Assembly (NCBI GenBank): GCA_037139495.1
Contig: JBAXGG010000003.1
Span: 1-49,200, forward strand
Direction of reading: 5' to 3'
DNA from: Candidatus Saccharimonadota bacterium
GTDB lineage: Bacteria > Patescibacteriota > Saccharimonadia > Saccharimonadales > JAUPVS01
Length of the DNA: 49,200 nucleotides
Shown here: positions 5,748-17,282 of the stretch, one piece after another
How positions within the stretch are numbered: the stretch's first letter is position 1
Layout: every line of letters starts with the position of its first letter
Program-made: the position numbers and the translations under genes
The notes under the pieces: model-generated
Told to the model about the DNA's origin: nothing
Seen by the model: only the letters and a program-made list of their open reading frames with translations
Database searches by the model: none

Positions 5748-6275
5748 ATGGCAGACTTTAATCAGGTACTTGATACTGGCGCAGTCGATGACGGCACCGT
5801 TAACACAGTTGTAGAAATTTCTAAGGGTTCGACTCTTAAGATCGAATGGGATCGCAAAAGAGCTGTTTTTATGTTAGACCGAATTGAACCAGCCATCTTT
5901 GTTAAACCCTGCAACTACGGTTTTATCCCTAAGACTCTCGACGAAGACGGTGATGAACTAGATACACTAATTGTTACCGAGGAGCCATTACCAACCGGTA
6001 TCTGGCTAGAAGCTCGCGTAGTTGGTATCTTGAACTTTGAAGACGACGGCGAAGCTGACCACAAAGTTGTGGTAGTCCCAGCCGACAACCGCAACAGCGG
6101 CGACAACATTAAAACGCTAGATGACCTCGGTGAACGTTGGAAAGAACAGATTGTCCACCACTTTACTCATTACAAAGACCTCAAAAAGCCCGGTAGCACC
6201 AAAGTCCTCGGCTGGGGAGATATTGCTGCGGCAATTGCAACAATCAAAGAGTGTCAAGAACGCTACACTAAGTAG
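5748..6275 (+). CDS. ppa: Family I inorganic pyrophosphatase
   Basis: NYGFIPKTLDEDGDELD, DDGEADHK, FTHYKDL. Confidence 0.95.
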   Translation: MADFNQVLDTGAVDDGTVNTVVEISKGSTLKIEWDRKRAVFMLDRIEPAIFVKPCNYGFIPKTLDEDGDELDTLIVTEEPLPTGIWLEARVVGILNFEDDGEADHKVVVVPADNRNSGDNIKTLDDLGERWKEQIVHHFTHYKDLKKPGSTKVLGWGDIAAAIATIKECQERYTK

Positions 6276-6347
6276 GCGACAATCTCCGCCCTTTAGAAAA
6301 CGATCTTTTTTACCTGTAGAATCAGATTTTGGCTCAAACCTAGCTGC

Positions 6348-6381
6348 TTGCGTCCAGCCCCGTTACCAGATACAATAACGG
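6348..6381 (+). promoter_or_regulatory. Putative sigma70 promoter of the gap operon
   Basis: TTGCGT(6348)-N17-TACAAT(6371); inverted repeat CCGTTA/TAACGG (6360-6365, 6376-6381) brackets the -10. Confidence 0.5.
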
Positions 6382-6416
6382 TATAAAGAACTAATGCTTT
6401 AAAAGGATACAAAGAA

Positions 6417-7457
6417 ATGAAAACACGGGTAGCAATCAACGGCTTTGGGCGTATCGGCCGTAACGCTTTTAAAATTGCCTTTGACCGGACCGATATCGAA
6501 ATTGTTGCTGTTAACGATATCACTGACACAAAAACTCTAGCTCATCTCCTGAAGTACGACAGCAACTACGGAACTTACGAGAATGTAGTTACCTTTGATT
6601 CCGAAAATATCATTGTTAAAGGCAAAAAAATTCCAGTTTTAGCTCAGACTGATCCTGCTTTACTCCCCTGGAAGGAACTAAAAGTTGACGTTGTTATCGA
6701 GTCGACCGGTTTTTTTGTTGATCCAGCCAAAGCTCGTGCCCATATTACTGCCGGTGCCAAAAAAGTCGTGTTGAGTGCTCCCGCCAAAGGCGAAGGTGCT
6801 ACAACAATCGTGCTCGGTGTTAACGATGACAGCCTAGAAACCGCCGAAGACATTATTAGCAACGCGTCGTGTACTACAAACTGTATTACACCAGTTGCCG
6901 CTGTTATCGAAGCCGCGTTTGGTATCGATAAAGCCATGATGACAACTATCCACAGTTATACGGCCAGCCAGAAGCTGCAGGACGCGCCGTCTAAGGACTT
7001 GCGTGAGGCACGGAATGCTGCCGAGAATATAGTTCCAACTAGTACCGGTGCCTCAATTGCTGCCGCCCAAGCATTGCCTGCTTTAGCTGGTGTCTTTGGC
7101 GGTTTGTCGGTGCGTGTACCAACCCCAGTCGTCTCACTGAGTGACTTCGTTATTATCACCAAGAAACCTGTGACCGTCGAAGCCGTTAATGAGGCTTTTA
7201 AAAAAGCTGCTCAAGAACCCTACTATCAAGGGATTCTAGCGGTTACAGAAGAAGAGCTGGTTAGCAAAGATTTTATAGGTAATAGTCACTCGGCTATTGT
7301 TGACAGTAAGCTCACCGCTGTAATTGGCGACAATATGCTTAAAGTTGTTGCCTGGTACGACAACGAGTGGGGCTACAGCAATCGTTTGGTAGAAGTTGTC
7401 GCTGACGCCGGCCGAATTTTGCACACTAAAGAAGACCACAACGAACATCACGAGTAA
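6417..7457 (+). CDS. gap: Type I glyceraldehyde-3-phosphate dehydrogenase
   Basis: INGFGRIGR, SNASCTTNC, WYDNEWGYS. Confidence 0.98.
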   Translation: MKTRVAINGFGRIGRNAFKIAFDRTDIEIVAVNDITDTKTLAHLLKYDSNYGTYENVVTFDSENIIVKGKKIPVLAQTDPALLPWKELKVDVVIESTGFFVDPAKARAHITAGAKKVVLSAPAKGEGATTIVLGVNDDSLETAEDIISNASCTTNCITPVAAVIEAAFGIDKAMMTTIHSYTASQKLQDAPSKDLREARNAAENIVPTSTGASIAAAQALPALAGVFGGLSVRVPTPVVSLSDFVIITKKPVTVEAVNEAFKKAAQEPYYQGILAVTEEELVSKDFIGNSHSAIVDSKLTAVIGDNMLKVVAWYDNEWGYSNRLVEVVADAGRILHTKEDHNEHHE

Positions 7458-7461
7458 AAAA

Positions 7462-7911
7462 ATGAAGATCTTTTTAGGCGCCGACCATAACGGTTTTGGA
7501 CTCAAAAGCAAGCTTGCTGACTACCTACAAACTCGCGGTTACGAGGTCGCAGACGGCGGTGATAAGCAACTTAATCCGGAAGATGATTTTCCGGAGTTCG
7601 CAAGTAAAGCCGTTCATGCTCTGAAGGGGAGCGGTGATCCCGAAGCTCGAGCAGTTTTAATATGTGGCAGCGGTCAAGGAATGTGCATGGCCGCTAATCG
7701 CTTTAAAGGTATTAGGGCCAGTTTGGTTTGGAACGAATCTGAGGCCCGATCGTCCCGGAACGATGACGATAGCAATGTCCTCTGCCTAGCCGCCCGAGAA
7801 AACACGGACTTTGACCAGATTACCGCTATTTTAGAAGTATGGCTCAAAACACCATTTTTAGGCGCTGACCGCTTTAGTCGCCGTATTAAGCAATTGGACG
7901 AGTTGGGTTAA
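7462..7911 (+). CDS. rpiB: Ribose-5-phosphate isomerase B (RpiB/LacA/LacB family)
   Basis: GADHNG, ICGSGQGM..ANR.KGIRA, N.SNVLCL; start moved to ATG 7462 just after the gap stop. Confidence 0.9.
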   Translation: MKIFLGADHNGFGLKSKLADYLQTRGYEVADGGDKQLNPEDDFPEFASKAVHALKGSGDPEARAVLICGSGQGMCMAANRFKGIRASLVWNESEARSSRNDDDSNVLCLAARENTDFDQITAILEVWLKTPFLGADRFSRRIKQLDELG

Positions 7912-7913
7912 AT

Positions 7914-8543
7914 ATGAGTGTAGTTGTCCCGGCGATTCTAGCTAAAGACCTGGCAACCTATAAGACTCAAATTCGGCGCGTCGAAAAGTTTGCCGAACGT
8001 ATTCATATTGATTTAACAGACCAGTTGTTTGCAATCAGCCCGACCATCAAGCTTGGGGAAGTTTTCTGGCCAAAGAAGCTTAAGGCAGATCTACATTTGA
8101 TGTACAAAACTCCAACCCGATATATGCGAGAGATTGTCAGGCTGATGCCAAATCTAGTCATAGTCCATGCCGAAGCCGACGGTGATTTTTTGACCTTTGC
8201 CCAGATTCTGGGCAAGCTTAAAATTAAAGTTGGAGTTGCCTTATTGCCCGAAACGCCAGCTTCAGCCATAAAACCCGCTCTACAGTATATTGATCATGTC
8301 ATGATCTTCAGTGGGCACCTTGGTAAATTTGGCGGCGAAGCCGATTTAGACCTGCTCGTTAAGGCCCAAGCCCTAAAGCATATAAAGCCGGAACTAGAAA
8401 TCGGTTGGGATGGTGGAGTTAACGATCGAAATGTTCATCTGCTCAAAGCGGCCGGGGTAGACGTTCTTAATGTTGGTGGTTTCATCCATGAGTCTAAAAA
8501 ACCAGCTACCGCTTATGCTAGACTGTTAAAACAGGTTAGTTGA
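7914..8543 (+). CDS. rpe: Ribulose-phosphate 3-epimerase
   Basis: PAIL, HID, DLHLM, HAEA, G.FGG, DGGVN motifs. Confidence 0.9.
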   Translation: MSVVVPAILAKDLATYKTQIRRVEKFAERIHIDLTDQLFAISPTIKLGEVFWPKKLKADLHLMYKTPTRYMREIVRLMPNLVIVHAEADGDFLTFAQILGKLKIKVGVALLPETPASAIKPALQYIDHVMIFSGHLGKFGGEADLDLLVKAQALKHIKPELEIGWDGGVNDRNVHLLKAAGVDVLNVGGFIHESKKPATAYARLLKQVS

Positions 8544-8550
8544 TTCAAAT

Positions 8551-9405
8551 ATGCAAAAACTAAACATCCAGGAATTAGAACTCAAAGCTAATACCATTCG
8601 CGAGGACATTATTAAGATGTTGGAGCGTGCTGGTAGCGGCCATAGTGCCGGTCCACTAGGATTGGCCGACATTTTTAGCGCTCTATATTTCGACATCCTA
8701 AAGCACGACCCCAAAAAACCCAATTGGAACCAACGCGACCTACTATTACTGAGTAATGGTCACTGCATACCGGTTCAATACGCTGCGATGGCCGAAGCTG
8801 GTTATTTTGACAAAGAAGAATTGATGACTTTGCGGCAGTTTGGCTCCCGTCTGCAAGGACACCCCGAGCGTCTACGTTTACCTGGTCTTGAGAACACTAG
8901 CGGCCCATTAGGCTCTGGCTTAAGTCAGGCGGCCGGAATGGCTTTAGCATTGCGCATGAACAAGGATCATTACCGTTGGATTTACGTAGTGATGGGTGAC
9001 GGTGAACAGGATGAAGGTAACATCTGGGAAGCAGCTATGCTAGCGGCCAAATACAAGCTCAATAACATTATAGCAATTACCGATCGCAATAATATTCAGA
9101 TCGATGGTCCTACTGAAACAGTCATGCCACTGGAAGACCTGCGCGCTAAGTGGGAAGCCTTTGGATGGCACGTAATTGAGGTTGATGGCAATAATATCGA
9201 AGCCGTCATTGACGCTTGCGCCATGGGCCGGGCAATTATCGAAAAACCAGTAATGATTATCGCTCACACTATACCTGGTAAAGGTGTTGATTTTATGGAG
9301 TACGACTTCCGATGGCACGGTATACCACCAAATCATGAACAAGCCAAGAAGGCTATCCACGAAATTCGCACTCTCGGCGGCAAGATTCGGGGCGAACATG
9401 AGTAA
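8551..9405 (+). CDS. tkt: Transketolase, N-terminal (TPP-binding) subunit
   Basis: GSGH, LSNGH, LQGHP, GPLGSG, GDGE..EG..WEA, DRN. Confidence 0.95.
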   Translation: MQKLNIQELELKANTIREDIIKMLERAGSGHSAGPLGLADIFSALYFDILKHDPKKPNWNQRDLLLLSNGHCIPVQYAAMAEAGYFDKEELMTLRQFGSRLQGHPERLRLPGLENTSGPLGSGLSQAAGMALALRMNKDHYRWIYVVMGDGEQDEGNIWEAAMLAAKYKLNNIIAITDRNNIQIDGPTETVMPLEDLRAKWEAFGWHVIEVDGNNIEAVIDACAMGRAIIEKPVMIIAHTIPGKGVDFMEYDFRWHGIPPNHEQAKKAIHEIRTLGGKIRGEHE

Positions 9406-10372
9406 TATGCATTTAGTCGCTAAAGACTTTTTAAAGGATGAGCTAGAAAAAGAACCAATTCGCAAAGGCTTTGGCCGGGGTTTACTAGAAGCCGGTAAGC
9501 GTGATGAGAACGTTGTTGGAGCCTGTGCTGACCTGACCGATTCTACCCAAATGAGTCTCTTTCGCGATGAATTTCCCGAGCGTTTTGTTGAAATTGGTGT
9601 GGCTGAACAAAATCTGGTTACGGTTGGTGCTGGCCTTGCCGCCATGGGTAAAATTCCTTTTGTCAGTAGCTACGCCACGTTTAGTCCAGGGCGCAACTGG
9701 GAACAGATTCGCACCACTATCTGCCTCAACTACCAGCCGGTCAAGATTATTGGCTCCCATGCGGGTCTATACACTGGTAAAGATGGTGCAACGCATCAAA
9801 TGCTTGAAGACCTAGCTTTAATGCGAGTGCTGCCTAACATGGTCGTATTAGCACCAGGCGATAGTGTTGAGGCCGAAAAAGCCACTCTCGCTATGGCAGT
9901 CGATAAGCGGCCTAATTACATGCGTTTAACCCGTGAGCCGACGCCAGTATTTACTACTGCCGAAACTCCTTTTGAAATCGGTAAAGCTTACGTTTTTAGC
10001 CTTGGCAAGGACATTACGATTATTGCTACCGGCACAATGACCTTCCAAGCGCTGGTGGCAGCCGAAATACTGTTTAAAGATGGTATTGATGCCGAAGTCA
10101 TTCACTGCCCAACTATCAAACCACTTGATGCAGCTACTTTGCTAGCCAGCGTCCAGAAAACTCGTGCCGTTATAACTGTTGAGGAAGGCCAGGTTATTGG
10201 CGGACTTGGTGGGGCTGTAGCCGAATTCTTAGGTGAACACTGCCCACGACCACTTAAACGGATTGGTATGAAAGATCACTTCGGCGAATCAGGCGACCCT
10301 GTCGATCTACTTGAACATTTTGGCTTAACAGCCAAACATATTGCTTTGGCCGCACATCAACAGTTACAATAA
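9398..10372 (+). CDS. tkt: Transketolase, C-terminal subunit
   Basis: ADL..S, GVAEQN, DGATHQ, TIKPLD, GGLG; ATG 9398 overlaps the stop of the N-terminal subunit gene. Confidence 0.93.
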   Translation: MSNMHLVAKDFLKDELEKEPIRKGFGRGLLEAGKRDENVVGACADLTDSTQMSLFRDEFPERFVEIGVAEQNLVTVGAGLAAMGKIPFVSSYATFSPGRNWEQIRTTICLNYQPVKIIGSHAGLYTGKDGATHQMLEDLALMRVLPNMVVLAPGDSVEAEKATLAMAVDKRPNYMRLTREPTPVFTTAETPFEIGKAYVFSLGKDITIIATGTMTFQALVAAEILFKDGIDAEVIHCPTIKPLDAATLLASVQKTRAVITVEEGQVIGGLGGAVAEFLGEHCPRPLKRIGMKDHFGESGDPVDLLEHFGLTAKHIALAAHQQLQ

Positions 10373-10387
10373 GCTTAAGGACTTTCA

Positions 10388-11299
10388 ATGCCACAAACAC
10401 TTCAACAGATTCGTGAAAACACCAAAAAGGCTCGGGCTACCATGGCTCGCGCTCGCAAAGACCACTTCGCTTTAGGCGCTTTTAACCTGGATAACCAAGA
10501 AACTCTAATTGCAGTTTGCAAGGCTGCCGCTTCTAAAAAAGCGCCAGTTCTAGTAGAAGTTAGCAAAGGTGAAGTTGATGCAATGGGGCTCGGCAATATC
10601 CGAGATATGGTCGACAACTATAAAGCCGAATACAACCTTGAGATTTATATTAACTTAGACCACTCTCCAACGGTAGAGGATGCCATTGCCGGTATCGAAA
10701 CTGGTTTTGAATTTATTCACATAGATGTAAGCCAGGCCAATCATAATGCCAGTGAGGCAGAAATAATCGAAGCCACTAAACGTGTCGTTGCCTGTGCGCG
10801 GCTAACTGGGGCTCTAGTGGAAAGTGAGCCACATTATTTCGGTGGTAGCTCAAATGTGCATACCGAAAATATTGATTACGATGAGATTAAAAAAACCTTC
10901 AGTACTCCAGAAGGCACCAGAAGTTTTGTTGAGGCCACCGGAATTGATACCTACGCTGCAGCTATCGGTAATCTCCATGGCCATTATCCTGTACCTAAGA
11001 AGCTTGACATCGAACTATTACAAAAGTTAAGAGATGTCATAGATTGTAATATCAGCTTACATGGCGGTAGCGACACCCCTGGACATTATTTTGTAGATGC
11101 CGTTAAAGTTGGTGTCACCAAGATTAATATCAACAGTGATATGCGAGTGGCCTACCGAGACACCTTAGAGAAAGTACTAAAAGACAACCCGACTGAATAT
11201 GCTGTGGTTAAATTGATGGGCCGAGTTGAAGACGCTGTCCAAAAAGTCGTCGAAAACAAGCTCGATATGTTTAACTCGGCCGGTAAAGCCAAGCCATAA
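10388..11299 (+). CDS. fba: Class II fructose-bisphosphate aldolase
   Basis: GAFN, NLDH, AIGNLHG, LHGGS, KININ. Confidence 0.93.
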   Translation: MPQTLQQIRENTKKARATMARARKDHFALGAFNLDNQETLIAVCKAAASKKAPVLVEVSKGEVDAMGLGNIRDMVDNYKAEYNLEIYINLDHSPTVEDAIAGIETGFEFIHIDVSQANHNASEAEIIEATKRVVACARLTGALVESEPHYFGGSSNVHTENIDYDEIKKTFSTPEGTRSFVEATGIDTYAAAIGNLHGHYPVPKKLDIELLQKLRDVIDCNISLHGGSDTPGHYFVDAVKVGVTKININSDMRVAYRDTLEKVLKDNPTEYAVVKLMGRVEDAVQKVVENKLDMFNSAGKAKP

Positions 11300-11302
11300 A
11301 AC

Positions 11303-12274
11303 ATGAGTAAACCTAAAATTATATCAATTGGAGCAGCCGTCCAAGATGTTTTTTTACAGGGCGAATTATTCCGCGCTCACCGCAATAAGGGAGAATCAGT
11401 TGAAGAGTTCGCTATGGGGAGTAAAAATGATGTCGAAGGTGTATATTTTAGCACCGGTGGTGGGGCTACTAATGCAGCAGTAACTTTTGCCCGCCAAGGT
11501 TTCCATAGCTACTACATGGGACAACTTGGCAACGACGTGCCGGCTCGGGCCATCAAAGAAGATTTGTTTAAAGACAAAGTAAACATCAGCCTTGTAAAAA
11601 TCAAGGAACACGTTAACACTGGCTATTCGGTTTTGTTGCTAGCTCCTAACGGCGAGCGAACTATTCTGACTTACCGCGGCGCTTCAATAGATTTTCAGAT
11701 TAAATCACTTGATTTCGCTCATACCAAACCAGATTGGTTTTATATTAGTTCACTGTCTGGTGATTACCAATCATTAAAAGTTATTATCGATTATGCTCGG
11801 AAAAACCACATCAAGGTTGCTATTAATCCAGGTTCGGCTGAACTAAAACACGGACACGACTTCAAAAAACTAATTCCTGACATTAGTATTTTGTGTGTTA
11901 ATAAAGAAGAAGCGCAGATGATCTTTAGGGGTGAGACCTGCGAGGATCTAGTCAGGCACGCTGTTAACCATATACCATTTGTAATTATAACCGATGGTCC
12001 TCGTGGCTCGGTAGCGAGCGACGGCCAAAGCATTTTTAAGGCTGGTATGTATGATGATGTACCTGTTGTCGACCGTACAGGAGCCGGTGACGCCTTTAGT
12101 AGTGGTTTCACAGCTATGATTGCCTCTGGTGTTCCGCTTGATAAAGCTATGATTTTTGCGAGCGCCAATTCAACTAATGTCGTCAGTAAACTCGGTGCTA
12201 AGGCTGGCATCCTCGAAGCAGGCACCCGCCTCCATACCATGCCTATAACTATCCACCCCATAATTCAAACTTAG
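11303..12274 (+). CDS. PfkB/ribokinase-family carbohydrate kinase
   Basis: GGGATNAA, G.D, GERTI, NPG, N..EA, DRTGAGDAF. Confidence 0.92.
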   Translation: MSKPKIISIGAAVQDVFLQGELFRAHRNKGESVEEFAMGSKNDVEGVYFSTGGGATNAAVTFARQGFHSYYMGQLGNDVPARAIKEDLFKDKVNISLVKIKEHVNTGYSVLLLAPNGERTILTYRGASIDFQIKSLDFAHTKPDWFYISSLSGDYQSLKVIIDYARKNHIKVAINPGSAELKHGHDFKKLIPDISILCVNKEEAQMIFRGETCEDLVRHAVNHIPFVIITDGPRGSVASDGQSIFKAGMYDDVPVVDRTGAGDAFSSGFTAMIASGVPLDKAMIFASANSTNVVSKLGAKAGILEAGTRLHTMPITIHPIIQT

Positions 12275-12291
12275 GCGTTTTAGATTTAAGC

Positions 12292-12369
12292 AATCTGTTC
12301 GGTGAGACACGTTGCGTCCGCAAAGATTCCTGAGGGTTCAGGACATACAGCCGAGTTACTGAACAGATT
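12292..12369 (+). ncRNA. Putative structured intergenic RNA/palindromic element, family unknown
   Basis: 14-bp closing stem 12292-12305/12356-12369 (2 G-U on the plus strand) enclosing hairpin TCCTGA-GGGT-TCAGGA (12328-12343). Confidence 0.4.
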
Positions 12370-12410
12370 ACTTTACCAGGCAAAGCGCTCATGTTAATCT
12401 TAGTGCAATT

Positions 12411-13652
12411 ATGAGTAAGATTTTGTCAGATCTCTTGGGCGCTACTGAGCCAATGTTTACGTTAGCTCTAAAACAGCTGGAGGAAGACAGTGGCAATCCG
12501 AGTGCCGATATCCGACTAACTGCTGAAATTACTGGCAAAATTCGACTCAAAACAATAGAACTCGGTTTAGACCCCGATGATACCACCGGCAGTGAGCTTT
12601 ATCATGCTTTGCTAAACCTTATCGCCAAGCAGGACGAACATTTAGTAAAACAAATCGGTGGTTCTGACCCCGATGATACTGCTGCCCTAATGCCTCTTAT
12701 CAGAAAGGCCTGGGAAGCCGTCGACACCAACAAGAGCTGCTGGGTTATCAAGCCGAGTGTCGCTAAAGCAATGCTAAAAAGAACACCGCCTAAAGCAATT
12801 ATGAAGCACCTGGGTTATCGTTCTATCGATTCGATGCTAAAACGTGAAAAACTCGGTGAGATATACGGTGCTTTGCGCTTTGCCGAGGATGCCAAGTGGC
12901 TTAATAATTTTGATGAACATTACAAAAAGCTTAAGCCATACGACTTTGAGACCCGCGAAATTGAGATTATCGAGATGCCATTAGAACGTTGGGGTGATTT
13001 ATCGGCTGCTTTCATTCACAAAAAGAAACATAACATCACCCATCTTAAAGAGCTAGGTGTTATTTTGATGCTGCCAATTGGAAAGGATGTTAGGTTGAAG
13101 GGCATAACTATCTTTGCATTACCCCTATTATTTCATTATCTTAACGAAATTAAACTTTACTCGGCGTTTTTTAAATTAAAACAGATGCAACCTAAGTTTG
13201 GTGAAATTGTCGCTAATACCCTGATTGCTGATACAGCCGAAGCTGCTATTATGGCTGGGCAAACTATCCACTGGCGAGTTATCCAGCGTTATTTTGCCCG
13301 ACTCGAGAACGAATATCATCCTGAAATTTTTGAACCTCACGTCCAACCAGAAGATTTACACTGGCGTCGAGCTGAGGAACTTTTGTTTAAAGTTGACCCA
13401 GAACTGGGCTTTTGGCGTGACTTGGACTACGTTGGCGTTATGCACGCCGGCCGGCCCGTAACAATGAACCTGCTAGACGTTGCCGCCAGTTACGTTAACG
13501 ATATGCCCTATGGTGAACGGGCGATTTACCATTTCCGTGACAGTCTATGGAACGAAGTATTCGTACGTTACATGGGCCAGAAGAACCTCGAACAACAAAT
13601 TCTTGGCCAGCTAGACAACAGCATGATTGCTCCTGAAAAGCTTAAAGTATGA
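12411..13652 (+). CDS. Hypothetical protein (413 aa, soluble)
   Basis: Long ORF on the operon strand, ATGA overlap with the next gene; no family recognised. Confidence 0.85.
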   Translation: MSKILSDLLGATEPMFTLALKQLEEDSGNPSADIRLTAEITGKIRLKTIELGLDPDDTTGSELYHALLNLIAKQDEHLVKQIGGSDPDDTAALMPLIRKAWEAVDTNKSCWVIKPSVAKAMLKRTPPKAIMKHLGYRSIDSMLKREKLGEIYGALRFAEDAKWLNNFDEHYKKLKPYDFETREIEIIEMPLERWGDLSAAFIHKKKHNITHLKELGVILMLPIGKDVRLKGITIFALPLLFHYLNEIKLYSAFFKLKQMQPKFGEIVANTLIADTAEAAIMAGQTIHWRVIQRYFARLENEYHPEIFEPHVQPEDLHWRRAEELLFKVDPELGFWRDLDYVGVMHAGRPVTMNLLDVAASYVNDMPYGERAIYHFRDSLWNEVFVRYMGQKNLEQQILGQLDNSMIAPEKLKV

Positions 13653-14254
13653 ACTATAGTATCTGTGTCTCGGGAGCCGCTGGTGGTAAAACTGTCAATG
13701 CAGCCCGGCCCTTAGCCGAGGCGTTGGGAAGAGAAATTGCAAAACGTGGACACACAATAACTACTGGTGCGACAGTCGGTCTGCCGTATTACGCGGCTCG
13801 CGCTGCTAAAGAAGCTGGTGGAATGAGTATTGGCTTTTCGCCAGCCGCTAGTTTACGAGAGCATCTTCACAAGTACCGATTACCAATCGGAGTTTTTGAT
13901 TTTATCAATTTTACTGGCATGCACTATGTTGGCCGTGATATTCACCTGGTTCAGTCCAGTGATGCAATTATTACTGTTGGTGGCCGTTTTGGCAGTCTGC
14001 ACGAGTTTACAACCGCTTTAGAGTCACGAATGCCTTGCGGAGTCTTAACAGGTAGCGGTGGTACCGCTGATGTCGTGGAAGAGCTAATGGAACGTCTGGA
14101 AGCCCCTAACCGGGACATGGTTGTATTCGATAGCGACCCAGATAACCTAATCAAAAAAATAATCAAAATTCTCGACAAGGAATATGCCGACATCGATCTT
14201 AAAGACGAATTAGCCCGCTGGTATCTTGACAGCAACGCTCCACATTATGGCTAG
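13649..14254 (+). CDS. LOG/SLOG-family protein (putative nucleotide phosphoribohydrolase)
   Basis: A..LG.EIA, TGATVGLP..AA, SIGFSP, R...LV..SDA, GGRFGSLHE (PGGxGTxxE variant). Confidence 0.82.
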   Translation: MNYSICVSGAAGGKTVNAARPLAEALGREIAKRGHTITTGATVGLPYYAARAAKEAGGMSIGFSPAASLREHLHKYRLPIGVFDFINFTGMHYVGRDIHLVQSSDAIITVGGRFGSLHEFTTALESRMPCGVLTGSGGTADVVEELMERLEAPNRDMVVFDSDPDNLIKKIIKILDKEYADIDLKDELARWYLDSNAPHYG

Positions 14255-16250: not shown

Positions 16251-17282
16251 TTAAGTAGTTTGATTCCTGAAGTACTCTAATTTGGCGTTAATTGTTTTAG
16301 GGTTGGCGATAGAAAGGTGAGTTCCGGTTATCACCTCAGTAGTAACAGCCTGACGGGATGTTCCGTTTGGACCACGTAGAATTTTGTGGAATTTCCGTTT
16401 CTGGTTACCGATACTATGCTCAAATAGTCGATAATGTGCTTTTTGTGTTTCTGGAATGTGAGCTATTAGATGTCCCAAATCCCCCCAAAAAAGAGCTCTA
16501 GGTAAAAGTGCGTTGCCAATGATATATTCCGTCGATAACTCAATCGTTTTAATATAGCTTGTCGCGTCCTCTTCTTCGTTAATTAGTCGAATAGCCTGGC
16601 GAAACAGACAGTATGCTTCTTTAGCAATGTATTCGGGGTGCTTAAGGAATTTTAAGGCCTCTTCTAGGCCAATTCTAGATACCATACATGGGTCAACGAA
16701 ATAGCCGTCGCGGACTACTCGATCAAAAGCTTCGGAGTAGGCTATCACACCGGTACTGGTCATAGCACCATTTGAATCTCCTTCAGCATCAATGATTGTG
16801 GTTTGTAGCTTATCTTCGAACTTTTGAGCGACAACCCCTAGTGCTAAGTGGACATCCCAGGAATTGCGATAAAGGCTATGACCCTGGTTAGGGACCCCTT
16901 GCCGGTAAGTATGTCTTCCCAATTCTCCTAGACGATCACTAGTCCTTTGATTAAAACCACGATCTAAGCTAGTAAACCAAGCCGGTTCACCAACAATCGG
17001 TAAGTCCGAAATAGGATTTAAAGCTATTCCAACTACACCCCGGGCGCGGGTTCCATCGCTAAAATGTTGATTAAGTTGATAATAGTTAACAAACCGAGTA
17101 TCAAGGTCTGGTCGCGGTATCGGATCTCCAAGTAAATCGATCGAGATATCCCCGAACGTGGGCAGCGGACTGGTTTGCAAAATAAAAACGTCCGCTTTCT
17201 GAGGCGGACGGGTGGAATGCACAATTCCAAGTTTTCTTTCATCGGGACCAGGACCTTCAGACATCATTGCTGCTACTGACAT
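16251..17282 (-). CDS. Hypothetical protein, possible alpha/beta-hydrolase fold
   Basis: 343-aa ORF filling the uvrB-gatC gap; G-D-S-N-G elbow-like motif and a C-terminal GTH; SD-like AAAGG upstream. Confidence 0.7.
   Translation of the reverse strand: MSVAAMMSEGPGPDERKLGIVHSTRPPQKADVFILQTSPLPTFGDISIDLLGDPIPRPDLDTRFVNYYQLNQHFSDGTRARGVVGIALNPISDLPIVGEPAWFTSLDRGFNQRTSDRLGELGRHTYRQGVPNQGHSLYRNSWDVHLALGVVAQKFEDKLQTTIIDAEGDSNGAMTSTGVIAYSEAFDRVVRDGYFVDPCMVSRIGLEEALKFLKHPEYIAKEAYCLFRQAIRLINEEEDATSYIKTIELSTEYIIGNALLPRALFWGDLGHLIAHIPETQKAHYRLFEHSIGNQKRKFHKILRGPNGTSRQAVTTEVITGTHLSIANPKTINAKLEYFRNQTT

What the first reader, a model, noticed from the sequence alone, without database searches (positions are those of the whole stretch)
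5748..14254. Candidate nucleotide-ribose catabolism module: LOG + non-oxidative PPP without transaldolase + PfkB + aldolase
Seen: co-oriented ppa, gap, rpiB, rpe, split tkt, class II fba, PfkB kinase, unknown 413-aa protein and LOG-family gene; no transaldolase or PfkA in the cluster. Known: LOG/PpnN enzymes cleave NMPs to base + ribose-5-P, and some transaldolase-less organisms close the PPP through sedoheptulose-1,7-bisphosphate using a phosphofructokinase plus aldolase. Inference: scavenged NMPs give R5P, RpiB/Rpe/Tkt give S7P and F6P, the PfkB kinase phosphorylates them, Fba splits them and GapA harvests the trioses. This would be a RuBisCO-independent way for a host-dependent bacterium to live on nucleotides.
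Basis: partly seen in the sequence, partly recalled or inferred. Interest (0 to 1): 0.72.

Follow-up and report, generated by a model that had tools for sequence, protein, structure and literature searches.

The report
Saccharibacteria operon replacing missing sugar enzymes
This is the core sugar-phosphate gene cluster of tiny host-dependent Saccharibacteria, in which an unusual kinase likely stands in for two missing textbook enzymes, while the nucleotide-cleaving-like gene at its end is likely an optional side feed rather than the cluster's purpose.

Summary
All ten genes are real and co-oriented; the genome has no detectable transaldolase or PfkA. The cluster is the standard central-carbon operon of Saccharimonadales: PfkB in 148 of 151 genomes, transaldolase in 7, PfkA in 4. 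The PfkB likely replaces phosphofructokinase (already predicted in print for TM7x): three unrelated aldolase types fill the slot beside it, one homolog is fused to an aldolase, and it keeps the Pfk-2 Lys27 equivalent. An S7P/SBP role is plausible but untested. 'Living on nucleotides' is weakened: the LOG gene is a non-canonical SLOG cluster-4 member, no more linked than uvrB, not beside the kinase outside this order, and dispensable in published Southlakia Tn-seq, where pfkB, fba, rpe, rpiB, pgi and glucokinase matter and gap does not; this genome also has glucokinase, PGI and the oxidative PPP. In its favour, 97 of 151 genomes show neither oxidative PPP nor PRPP synthase, yet sampled ones keep RpiB. 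The kinase's deeper partner is the 413-aa orphan (no family; weak zincin-like fold hint), sometimes fused to LOG. The scan noted this orphan-LOG pair before on other DNA.

The parts
5748..6275 (+). ppa, inorganic pyrophosphatase (upstream neighbour, 141 bp before gap; often separated from gap by insertions in relatives)
   Evidence: PF00719 E 5.6e-45; insertions
6417..7457 (+). [quoted passage not shown]
   Evidence: TIGR01534 416 bits over cut-off 367
7462..7911 (+). rpiB-family ribose-5-phosphate isomerase
   Evidence: TIGR00689 and NF004051 over cut-off; ATG at 7462
7914..8543 (+). rpe, ribulose-phosphate 3-epimerase family
   Evidence: PF00834 E 1.5e-24; under the TIGR01163 cut-off
8551..9405 (+). 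transketolase N-terminal (ThDP-binding) subunit
   Evidence: PF00456 E 4e-59
9398..10372 (+). transketolase C-terminal subunit
   Evidence: PF02779 + PF02780
10388..11299 (+). class II ketose-bisphosphate aldolase; replaced in situ by class I or FbaB-type FBP aldolases in some relatives
   Evidence: PF01116 E 6.5e-61; metal-ligand motifs present (their role is recalled); swaps
11303..12274 (+). PfkB-family kinase, likely fructose-6-phosphate 1-kinase and possibly sedoheptulose-7-phosphate 1-kinase
   Evidence: PF00294; K41 aligns with Pfk-2 Lys27, kept in 68 of 70 homologs; only PfkB over cut-off in the genome
12411..13652 (+). 413-aa orphan of Patescibacteria, single copy, follows the kinase; fused to a classic LOG domain in some relatives
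   Evidence: no family; 147 of 151 order genomes; 6 of 143 genomes outside the order, all just behind the kinase; fusions
13649..14254 (+). SLOG cluster-4 (LOG-like) protein with the LOG Arg/Glu pair but a variant motif
   Evidence: PF18306; R96 and E119 invariant in 18 sequences; closest solved structures 1rcu, 6y01, 2iz5

Best explanation
This is the conserved central-carbon operon of Saccharimonadales, in which the PfkB-family kinase likely phosphorylates fructose-6-phosphate (and probably sedoheptulose-7-phosphate) at C1 so that the adjacent aldolase would split the products, thereby standing in for the undetected phosphofructokinase and, in the catabolic direction, transaldolase. Shown here: gene identities, absence of tal/pfkA hits, kinase-aldolase coupling, residue conservation. 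Inferred: glucose enters by ROK glucokinase and PGI, or by zwf-pgl-gnd in this genome; RpiB/Rpe/Tkt turn any pentose phosphate into F6P, S7P and GAP; kinase plus aldolase clear F6P and S7P. The LOG-like gene is inferred to be an accessory, dispensable source of ribose-5-phosphate or a nucleotide-handling partner of the orphan, not the main fuel line. My odds by step: F6P 1-kinase 0.75; physiological S7P kinase 0.5; LOG-like protein cleaves NMPs 0.55; its R5P feeds this pathway to a useful extent 0.3; nucleotides as main energy source 0.1.
For: PfkB 148 of 151, PfkA 4 of 151, transaldolase 7 of 151 genomes; 118 of 151 show none of tal, xfp, pfkA. The slot upstream of pfkB holds class II aldolase in 51, class I in 4 and none within 3.5 kb in 5 of 60 loci (after removing 3 duplicate loci), and an FbaB-type class I enzyme in L111. 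L090 is a PfkB::class I FBP aldolase fusion. 5 of the 7 transaldolase genes lie inverted between aldolase and pfkB. K41 aligns with Pfk-2 Lys27 and the ribokinase XGKG lysine is missing, as described for Pfk-2 (PMC6429617 passages); sulfofructose kinase uses the same in-trans lysine (PMC8006165 passages). Outside the order the kinase sits by aldolases, gap, tkt or rpe. Southlakia Tn-seq: pfkB 815>344>46 reads, fba 782>124>19, rpe 295>75>10, rpiB 118>31>4, with pgi, ROK and tpi called essential, LOG 2084>3498>3748 (PMC10633639 Table S1 rows). TM7x uses glucose and induces its pfkB (PMC12815258 passages). This genome has ROK, PGI/PMI, zwf, gnd, pgl, tpi, pgk, pyk.
Against: No activity measured here or in the papers I read. 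The kinase lacks the TR/RRS 6-phosphate motif of Pfk-2, scores far under the hexose-phosphate kinase model TIGR03168 (60.8 vs 216.4), and its best solved relative is YdjH, a kinase of a free ketouronate. Documented SBP pathways use PfkA-family PPi-PFKs (PMC7029132 passages). In Southlakia tkt mutants decline only 2.6 to 5.6-fold and are not called defective, which neither direction of flux explains cleanly; that organism is an oral species without the orphan at this locus, so its fitness pattern may not transfer. Where tal is gained, the aldolase and kinase are kept, which is neutral for the S7P step. No enolase was found in this genome or 3 of 4 family members, so ATP yield below GAP is uncertain.
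Confidence: 0.55

Rival explanations
1. One reading: the operon exists mainly to burn the ribose of scavenged nucleotides; the LOG-like enzyme (perhaps with the orphan) releases R5P, and PPP, kinase, aldolase and GapA turn it into ATP.
For: A LOG-type gene lies within 4.5 kb of pfkB in 52 of 62 loci: 45 SLOG cluster 4 and 7 classic LOG, the latter fused, separate or inverted. PF18306 hits in 151 of 151 genomes (weak hits not checked). Catalytic-type Arg/Glu kept. 97 of 151 genomes show neither zwf nor PRPP synthase, and 22 of 25 loci fetched from such genomes keep rpiB-rpe-tktN-tktC, so an outside pentose source is needed to explain RpiB. In Southlakia rpiB and rpe matter more than tkt or xfp, as expected if R5P flows in and two exits share the load. 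No RuBisCO in 5 of 5 family genomes.
Against: LOG, gap, enolase and gpmA mutants are neutral in Southlakia. uvrB is as tightly linked (58 of 62). No LOG beside the kinase in 20 of 20 loci outside the order (1.5-kb flanks) or in the six orphan loci there (up to 9-kb flanks). The classic LOGs are 41-60% identical to each other, so they may stem from few events. The nearest solved relatives include Moco carrier proteins. This genome has a full glucose entry and oxidative PPP.
Confidence: 0.2
2. The kinase acts on a free sugar or nucleoside (ribose, fructose, a ketouronate as YdjH does), and the aldolase cleaves a ketose-1-phosphate; upper glycolysis stays broken.
For: Top NCBIfam score is ribokinase (109.6 bits, under cut-off 299.65); TM7x_02415 was first annotated ribokinase; best PDB hit YdjH, itself paired with a class II aldolase; no TR motif.
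Against: The conserved K41 is absent from YdjH in the alignment; the ribokinase XGKG lysine is missing; bona fide class I FBP aldolases replace or fuse to the partner; pgi, ROK, tpi, fba and pfkB share a fitness cost.
Confidence: 0.15
3. The working unit is kinase plus orphan: the 413-aa protein is a metal-dependent enzyme (for example a sugar-bisphosphatase or a nucleotide hydrolase) or a regulator that sets the direction of flux at this step; LOG was added later in Saccharimonadales.
For: Orphan directly or one gene behind the kinase in 58 of 62 order loci and 6 of 6 loci outside the order, where neither aldolase nor LOG is adjacent. Conserved His/Glu/Asp/Arg set including H242-Y-x-x-E246. 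Most of the top 50 structural matches are zincin-type metalloproteins.
Against: Best Z only 6.8, in the range of chance; no Foldseek hit. The residues decay to 35-60% in divergent homologs. Southlakia lacks it at this locus and G058 carries an internally deleted copy; 14 of 20 kinases outside the order have no orphan in their genome.
Confidence: 0.1

Closest known systems
SBP pathway of cellulolytic clostridia and Entamoeba (PPi-PFK plus FBP aldolase instead of transaldolase; PMC7029132, passages read)
   Same: No transaldolase; transketolase, Rpi, Rpe and aldolase present; a phosphofructokinase-type step would clear S7P
   Different: Here no PfkA-family enzyme; the candidate is a PfkB-family, presumably ATP-dependent and one-way kinase; S7P activity untested
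E. coli Pfk-2 (PfkB) and sulfofructose kinase YihV
   Same: PfkB fold motifs, in-trans Lys27 equivalent, no XGKG lysine, aldolase partner
   Different: 19% identical to Pfk-2; no TR/RRS triad; under TIGR03168 cut-off
TM7x_02415 of Nanosynbacter lyticus (PMC12815258, passages read) and SEML1_0547 of Southlakia epibionticum (PMC10633639, supplement rows read)
   Same: PfkB-family kinase next to fba; in Southlakia the same gene order gap-rpiB-rpe-tkt-tkt-fba-pfkB-LOG; predicted PFK substitute in TM7x
   Different: Southlakia has no orphan between pfkB and LOG; no assay or S7P role in the passages I saw; I did not compare their sequences with the window's
E. coli YdjH/YdjI (octuluronate kinase and its 1-phosphate aldolase)
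   Same: Best solved sequence relative (E 3.6e-38); kinase next to class II aldolase
   Different: 26% identity; lacks the conserved lysine; sits in a sugar-acid uptake operon
LOG/PpnN phosphoribohydrolases; SLOG cluster 4 (Thermotoga 1rcu, Moco carrier proteins 2iz5, 6y01)
   Same: Rossmann SLOG fold family, Arg and Glu at the catalytic positions
   Different: Motif is VGGxGSxxE, not PGGxGTxxE; under classic LOG cut-offs; no PpnN accessory domains in its 201 aa; activity untested

Membership tests
SBP (transaldolase-free) pentose phosphate pathway | No transaldolase in the genome | tested here: met
   0 hits in own genome, 94.8% complete; 0 of 4 family genomes and 7 of 151 in the order
SBP (transaldolase-free) pentose phosphate pathway | Transketolase, Rpi, Rpe and FBP aldolase present | tested here: met
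SBP (transaldolase-free) pentose phosphate pathway | PfkA-family (PPi-dependent) PFK as in the described cases | tested here: not met
   PF00365: 0 in own genome, 4 of 151 in order
SBP (transaldolase-free) pentose phosphate pathway | A kinase with physiological affinity for S7P and an SBP pool | not testable with these tools
   needs enzyme assay and metabolomics
Pfk-2/FruK/LacC phosphosugar kinase subfamily of PfkB | GXGD catalytic motif and N-terminal sugar-binding Asp | tested here: met
   G260-A-G-D263 and D15 invariant
Pfk-2/FruK/LacC phosphosugar kinase subfamily of PfkB | In-trans lysine (Lys27) replacing the XGKG lysine | tested here: met
   K41 aligned to Pfk-2 K27 at 19% identity; 68 of 70 homologs; by sequence alignment only
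Pfk-2/FruK/LacC phosphosugar kinase subfamily of PfkB | TR motif / RRS triad for the 6-phosphate; score over TIGR03168 cut-off | tested here: not met
   T106-G107 in place of TR; 60.8 vs 216.4 bits
Classic LOG phosphoribohydrolase (PF03641/TIGR00730) | PGGxGTxxE motif and score over cut-off | tested here: not met
   motif VGGRFGSLHE; 23.2 vs 27 and 44.4 vs 96.35 bits
Classic LOG phosphoribohydrolase (PF03641/TIGR00730) | Catalytic Arg and Glu | tested here: met
   R96 and E119 invariant and aligned with Arg/Glu of 5zbj; their role from PMC8234997 passages
SLOG cluster 4 (PF18306) | Score over Pfam cut-off across the model | tested here: met
   102.9 vs 26.3 bits, positions 2-150 of 151
Classic LOG phosphoribohydrolase (PF03641/TIGR00730) | Releases base and ribose-5-phosphate from NMPs | not testable with these tools
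   needs assay
Zincin metallopeptidases (for the orphan) | HExxH zinc motif | tested here: not met
   H242-Y-L-N-E246 on the long helix 232-256
Zincin metallopeptidases (for the orphan) | Zincin fold | tested here: inconclusive
   best Z 6.8, rmsd 5.0, 227 aligned (3o0y); many zincins at Z 3-5

The most novel reading that the evidence does not exclude
Patescibacteria close both glycolysis and the pentose phosphate pathway with one undescribed PfkB clade that phosphorylates F6P and S7P, and in Saccharimonadales a new metal-dependent enzyme (the 413-aa orphan) plus a LOG-like nucleosidase feed it ribose-5-phosphate from host-derived nucleotides: a RuBisCO-free nucleotide-to-triose route that would explain why RpiB is kept in genomes with neither oxidative PPP nor PRPP synthase.
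Probability: 0.15. Interest if true: 0.82.

Novelty: new variant of a known kind. Interest (0 to 1): 0.5.

Why it matters
Papers on Patescibacteria repeatedly report that phosphofructokinase and transaldolase are both missing and that glycolysis therefore looks broken (PMC6031116, PMC7143001, PMC12361377; passages read), yet TM7x ferments glucose (PMC12815258). One soluble 323-aa kinase, present in 148 of 151 Saccharimonadales genomes and in genetically tractable strains, makes this directly testable. An S7P role would be an SBP pathway run by a PfkB-family enzyme, which I did not find described. The nucleotide-fuel reading would add a second route beside the RuBisCO-based one, but present evidence makes it a side branch at most.

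Tried and rejected
Complex prediction of kinase with orphan (alignments A2, A7): no answer, score 0.00 against a mark of 0.32; not counted for or against binding. Foldseek against PDB: no match under E 0.001. Profile search of PDB sequences: one chance hit. Pfam on 20 orphan members: no family shared by two members. ESM Atlas: best 0.76, no lead; a second query on part of a distant homolog got no answer. Idea that the orphan replaces the aldolase outside the order: rejected, 5 of 5 genomes tested (of 6) have a class II aldolase elsewhere. Idea that transaldolase displaces the aldolase: rejected, it is kept. Phosphoketolase as the general exit for pentoses: only 26 of 151 genomes. Promoter and terminator scan: 18 vs 12.9 and 9 vs 8.4 expected, none in the pfkB-orphan gap on the + strand; uninformative. 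FBPase, nucleoside phosphorylase and phosphopentomutase were not searched in the own genome. Literature searches for a LOG or nucleotide-ribose route in Saccharibacteria returned nothing relevant; the library lacks most subscription papers. Supplements of PMC12815258 (its Fig. S4) were not read and may bear on the pathway map.
Full report
Observation. The ten genes are present at the stated places on the + strand and match the named families, except that the last gene belongs to SLOG cluster 4 (PF18306) and falls under the cut-offs of classic LOG models. Close relatives of the 413-aa protein lie in records titled Saccharibacteria/Saccharimonadales or unnamed bacterium/Patescibacteria (29 loci). 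The assembly is 663 kb in 41 contigs, 94.8% complete.

The rest of the genome. No transaldolase, no PfkA family, one PfkB over cut-off, no RuBisCO or PRPP synthase. Of 27 candidate proteins picked by eye and scanned, there are G6P dehydrogenase, 6-phosphogluconate dehydrogenase, phosphogluconolactonase, ROK kinase, bifunctional PGI/PMI, TPI, PGK, pyruvate kinase, a heme-copper oxidase subunit I and an NADH dehydrogenase-like flavoprotein. Enolase was not found here or in 3 of 4 family genomes, and the fourth has a stop inside the match. Phosphoketolase is seen only as a chimeric fragment at a contig end. So this organism can make pentose phosphate from glucose and does not need nucleotides for it.

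Distribution. In one draw of 151 genomes of the order (at least 90% complete, kin not independent): this PfkB 148, orphan 147, PF18306 151 with weak hits unchecked, transaldolase 7, PfkA 4, zwf 40, PRPP synthase 27, phosphoketolase 26. 118 show none of tal, xfp, pfkA; 97 show neither zwf nor PRPP synthase. Of the 39 genomes whose kinase locus I fetched, 25 are of that last kind and 22 keep rpiB-rpe-tktN-tktC at the locus. The kinase falls in two subclades (about 50% and 33% identical to the window's), both in the same slot.

Kinase and aldolase are a pair. After removing 3 duplicate loci, the gene within 3.5 kb upstream of the kinase is a class II aldolase in 51, a class I FBP aldolase in 4 and none in 5 of 60 loci; further class I cases are L003, L046, L060, and L111 has an FbaB-type enzyme. 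L090 encodes a 670-aa kinase::class I FBP aldolase fusion. Five of the seven transaldolase genes have landed, inverted, between aldolase and kinase, with the aldolase kept. Outside the order, 20 of 143 genomes have a strong hit to the window's subclade; labelled neighbours within 1.5 kb are aldolases in 5, the orphan in 6, also gap, tkt, rpe, and no LOG. In sequence, D15 and GAGD are invariant; K41 aligns with Lys27 of E. coli Pfk-2 and is kept in 68 of 70 homologs, and the XGKG lysine is missing. PMC6429617 (passages) describes exactly this swap for Pfk-2, and PMC8006165 (passages) the same lysine in sulfofructose kinase. Against membership of the Pfk-2 subfamily: no TR motif and a TIGR03168 score of 60.8 vs 216.4; the best solved relative is YdjH, a free-ketouronate kinase paired with a class II aldolase, which lacks the lysine. 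Inference: a C1 kinase for an anionic ketose, most simply F6P. PMC12815258 (passages) already predicts this for TM7x_02415 and shows glucose use and induction, with no knockout or assay.

The SBP step. With transketolase but no transaldolase or phosphoketolase, S7P has no exit unless it is phosphorylated and cleaved (established pathway logic; PMC7029132 passages). The only candidate kinase is this one. The described cases use PfkA-family PPi enzymes, and that paper notes an ATP enzyme could serve only the catabolic direction. This step is inferred, about even odds.

The LOG gene. R96 and E119 are invariant in 18 aligned sequences and line up with the Arg and Glu of a solved LOG, the pair described as catalytic (PMC8234997 passages), but the motif is variant and the nearest structures are 1rcu and Moco carrier proteins. 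In 62 non-duplicate loci with at least 5 kb downstream, a LOG-type gene is near the kinase in 52 (45 cluster 4, 7 classic), the orphan in 58, uvrB in 58. Classic LOG appears fused to the orphan (L027, L028, L109, L125), separate (L015, L107) or inverted (L096, L098); the six of these whose frames I compared are 41-60% identical (the L096 frame was mis-picked and left out). Two subfamilies at one site suggest a real tie, but the block trxB to gatB is conserved as a whole, so synteny alone is weak.

Genetic evidence from a relative. PMC10633639 (main-text passages; rows of Tables S1 and S2) gives Tn-seq for Southlakia epibionticum, which has gap-rpiB-rpe-tkt-tkt-fba-pfkB-LOG without the orphan. 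Normalised reads T0>T1>T2: LOG 2084>3498>3748 (non-essential), pfkB 815>344>46, fba 782>124>19, rpe 295>75>10, rpiB 118>31>4 (growth defect), tkt 2847>1283>508 and 1323>1321>518, gap 4376>4163>3595, enolase and phosphoketolase neutral; ROK, PGI/PMI, TPI, ppa and carbamate kinase essential by T2. Neutral gap upstream and LOG downstream argue against polar effects. My word searches found no row for pgk, zwf, gnd, tal or PRPP synthase; I did not read the whole table. The pattern fits a glucose-to-triose chain that includes the kinase, shows LOG is not needed in rich co-culture, and shows that ATP through GapA is not what the operon is needed for in that species. That rpiB and rpe outweigh tkt and xfp is compatible with a pentose inflow from an unknown source.

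The orphan. No Pfam, NCBIfam or PDB sequence match; 928 representatives at 50% clustering and 1634 proteins in a second search, the best 120 unnamed or 'hypothetical', including Parcubacteria, Tagabacteria and Pacebacteria labels. It occurs in 6 of 143 genomes outside the order, plus one weak hit, each directly or one gene behind the kinase, with no aldolase or LOG adjacent. So kinase plus orphan is the older pair and LOG a Saccharimonadales addition. Models are confident except residues 275-300 and the C-terminus. Foldseek found nothing; the wide structural search gave Z 6.8 at best, with mostly zincin-type proteins in the top 50, which is below the level the tool calls meaningful. A conserved HYxxE sits where HExxH might; it is 95-100% conserved in the close set but 39-59% in divergent representatives. 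I read it as a possible metal-dependent hydrolase, low confidence.

Earlier notes of this scan (read after my own tests) describe the same orphan-LOG pair on other DNA; three call the orphan Saccharibacteria-only, which contradict.

Verdict. New variant of a known kind; interest 0.5.

Noticed in passing
L034:13043-13657 (end of contig C12 of the own genome): One open frame that reads as an acetate-kinase-like piece (by eye), a phosphoketolase N-terminal piece (PF09364) and a further unrelated piece; either a misassembled contig end or a deletion relic of ackA-xfp.
   Followed up: partly
own genome and family f1: No enolase found in the own genome or 3 of 4 family genomes although pyruvate kinase and PGK are intact in the own genome; the one hit has a TAG inside. 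Lower glycolysis may be cut in this family.
   Followed up: partly
L110, L111, L112, L113, L114: Transaldolase (actinobacterial-type subfamily model NF002881 for L113) inserted in inverted orientation between aldolase and pfkB in 5 of the 7 tal-bearing genomes.
   Followed up: yes
L090:8931-10940: PfkB kinase fused to a class I fructose-bisphosphate aldolase, a second copy away from the operon.
   Followed up: yes
L092:8645-10608: Both PfkB subclades in tandem behind a class I aldolase, hinting that they may differ in substrate.
   Followed up: no
L091:8108-9170: Orphan reduced to a 157-aa internal deletion (residues about 1-68 and 336-402) still in frame between pfkB and SLOG.
   Followed up: partly
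L023:1934-3565, L026, L028, L091, L109: A RelA/SpoT gene on the opposite strand between ppa and gap in several relatives and in Southlakia; PpnN-type LOG enzymes are ppGpp-regulated (search listing).
   Followed up: no
window 16251-17282 (- strand): 343-aa ORF with no Pfam or NCBIfam match between uvrB and gatC; similarly sized unnamed ORFs sit at this place in many relatives.
   Followed up: no
L133, L137, L169, L171, L181: Outside the order a gene that looks by eye like a 2-hydroxyacid dehydrogenase follows the kinase or the orphan; not scanned.
   Followed up: no
own genome C33 and C40; C23 and C35: Near-identical gene starts on different small contigs, suggesting duplicated or strain-mixed assembly pieces.
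   Followed up: no
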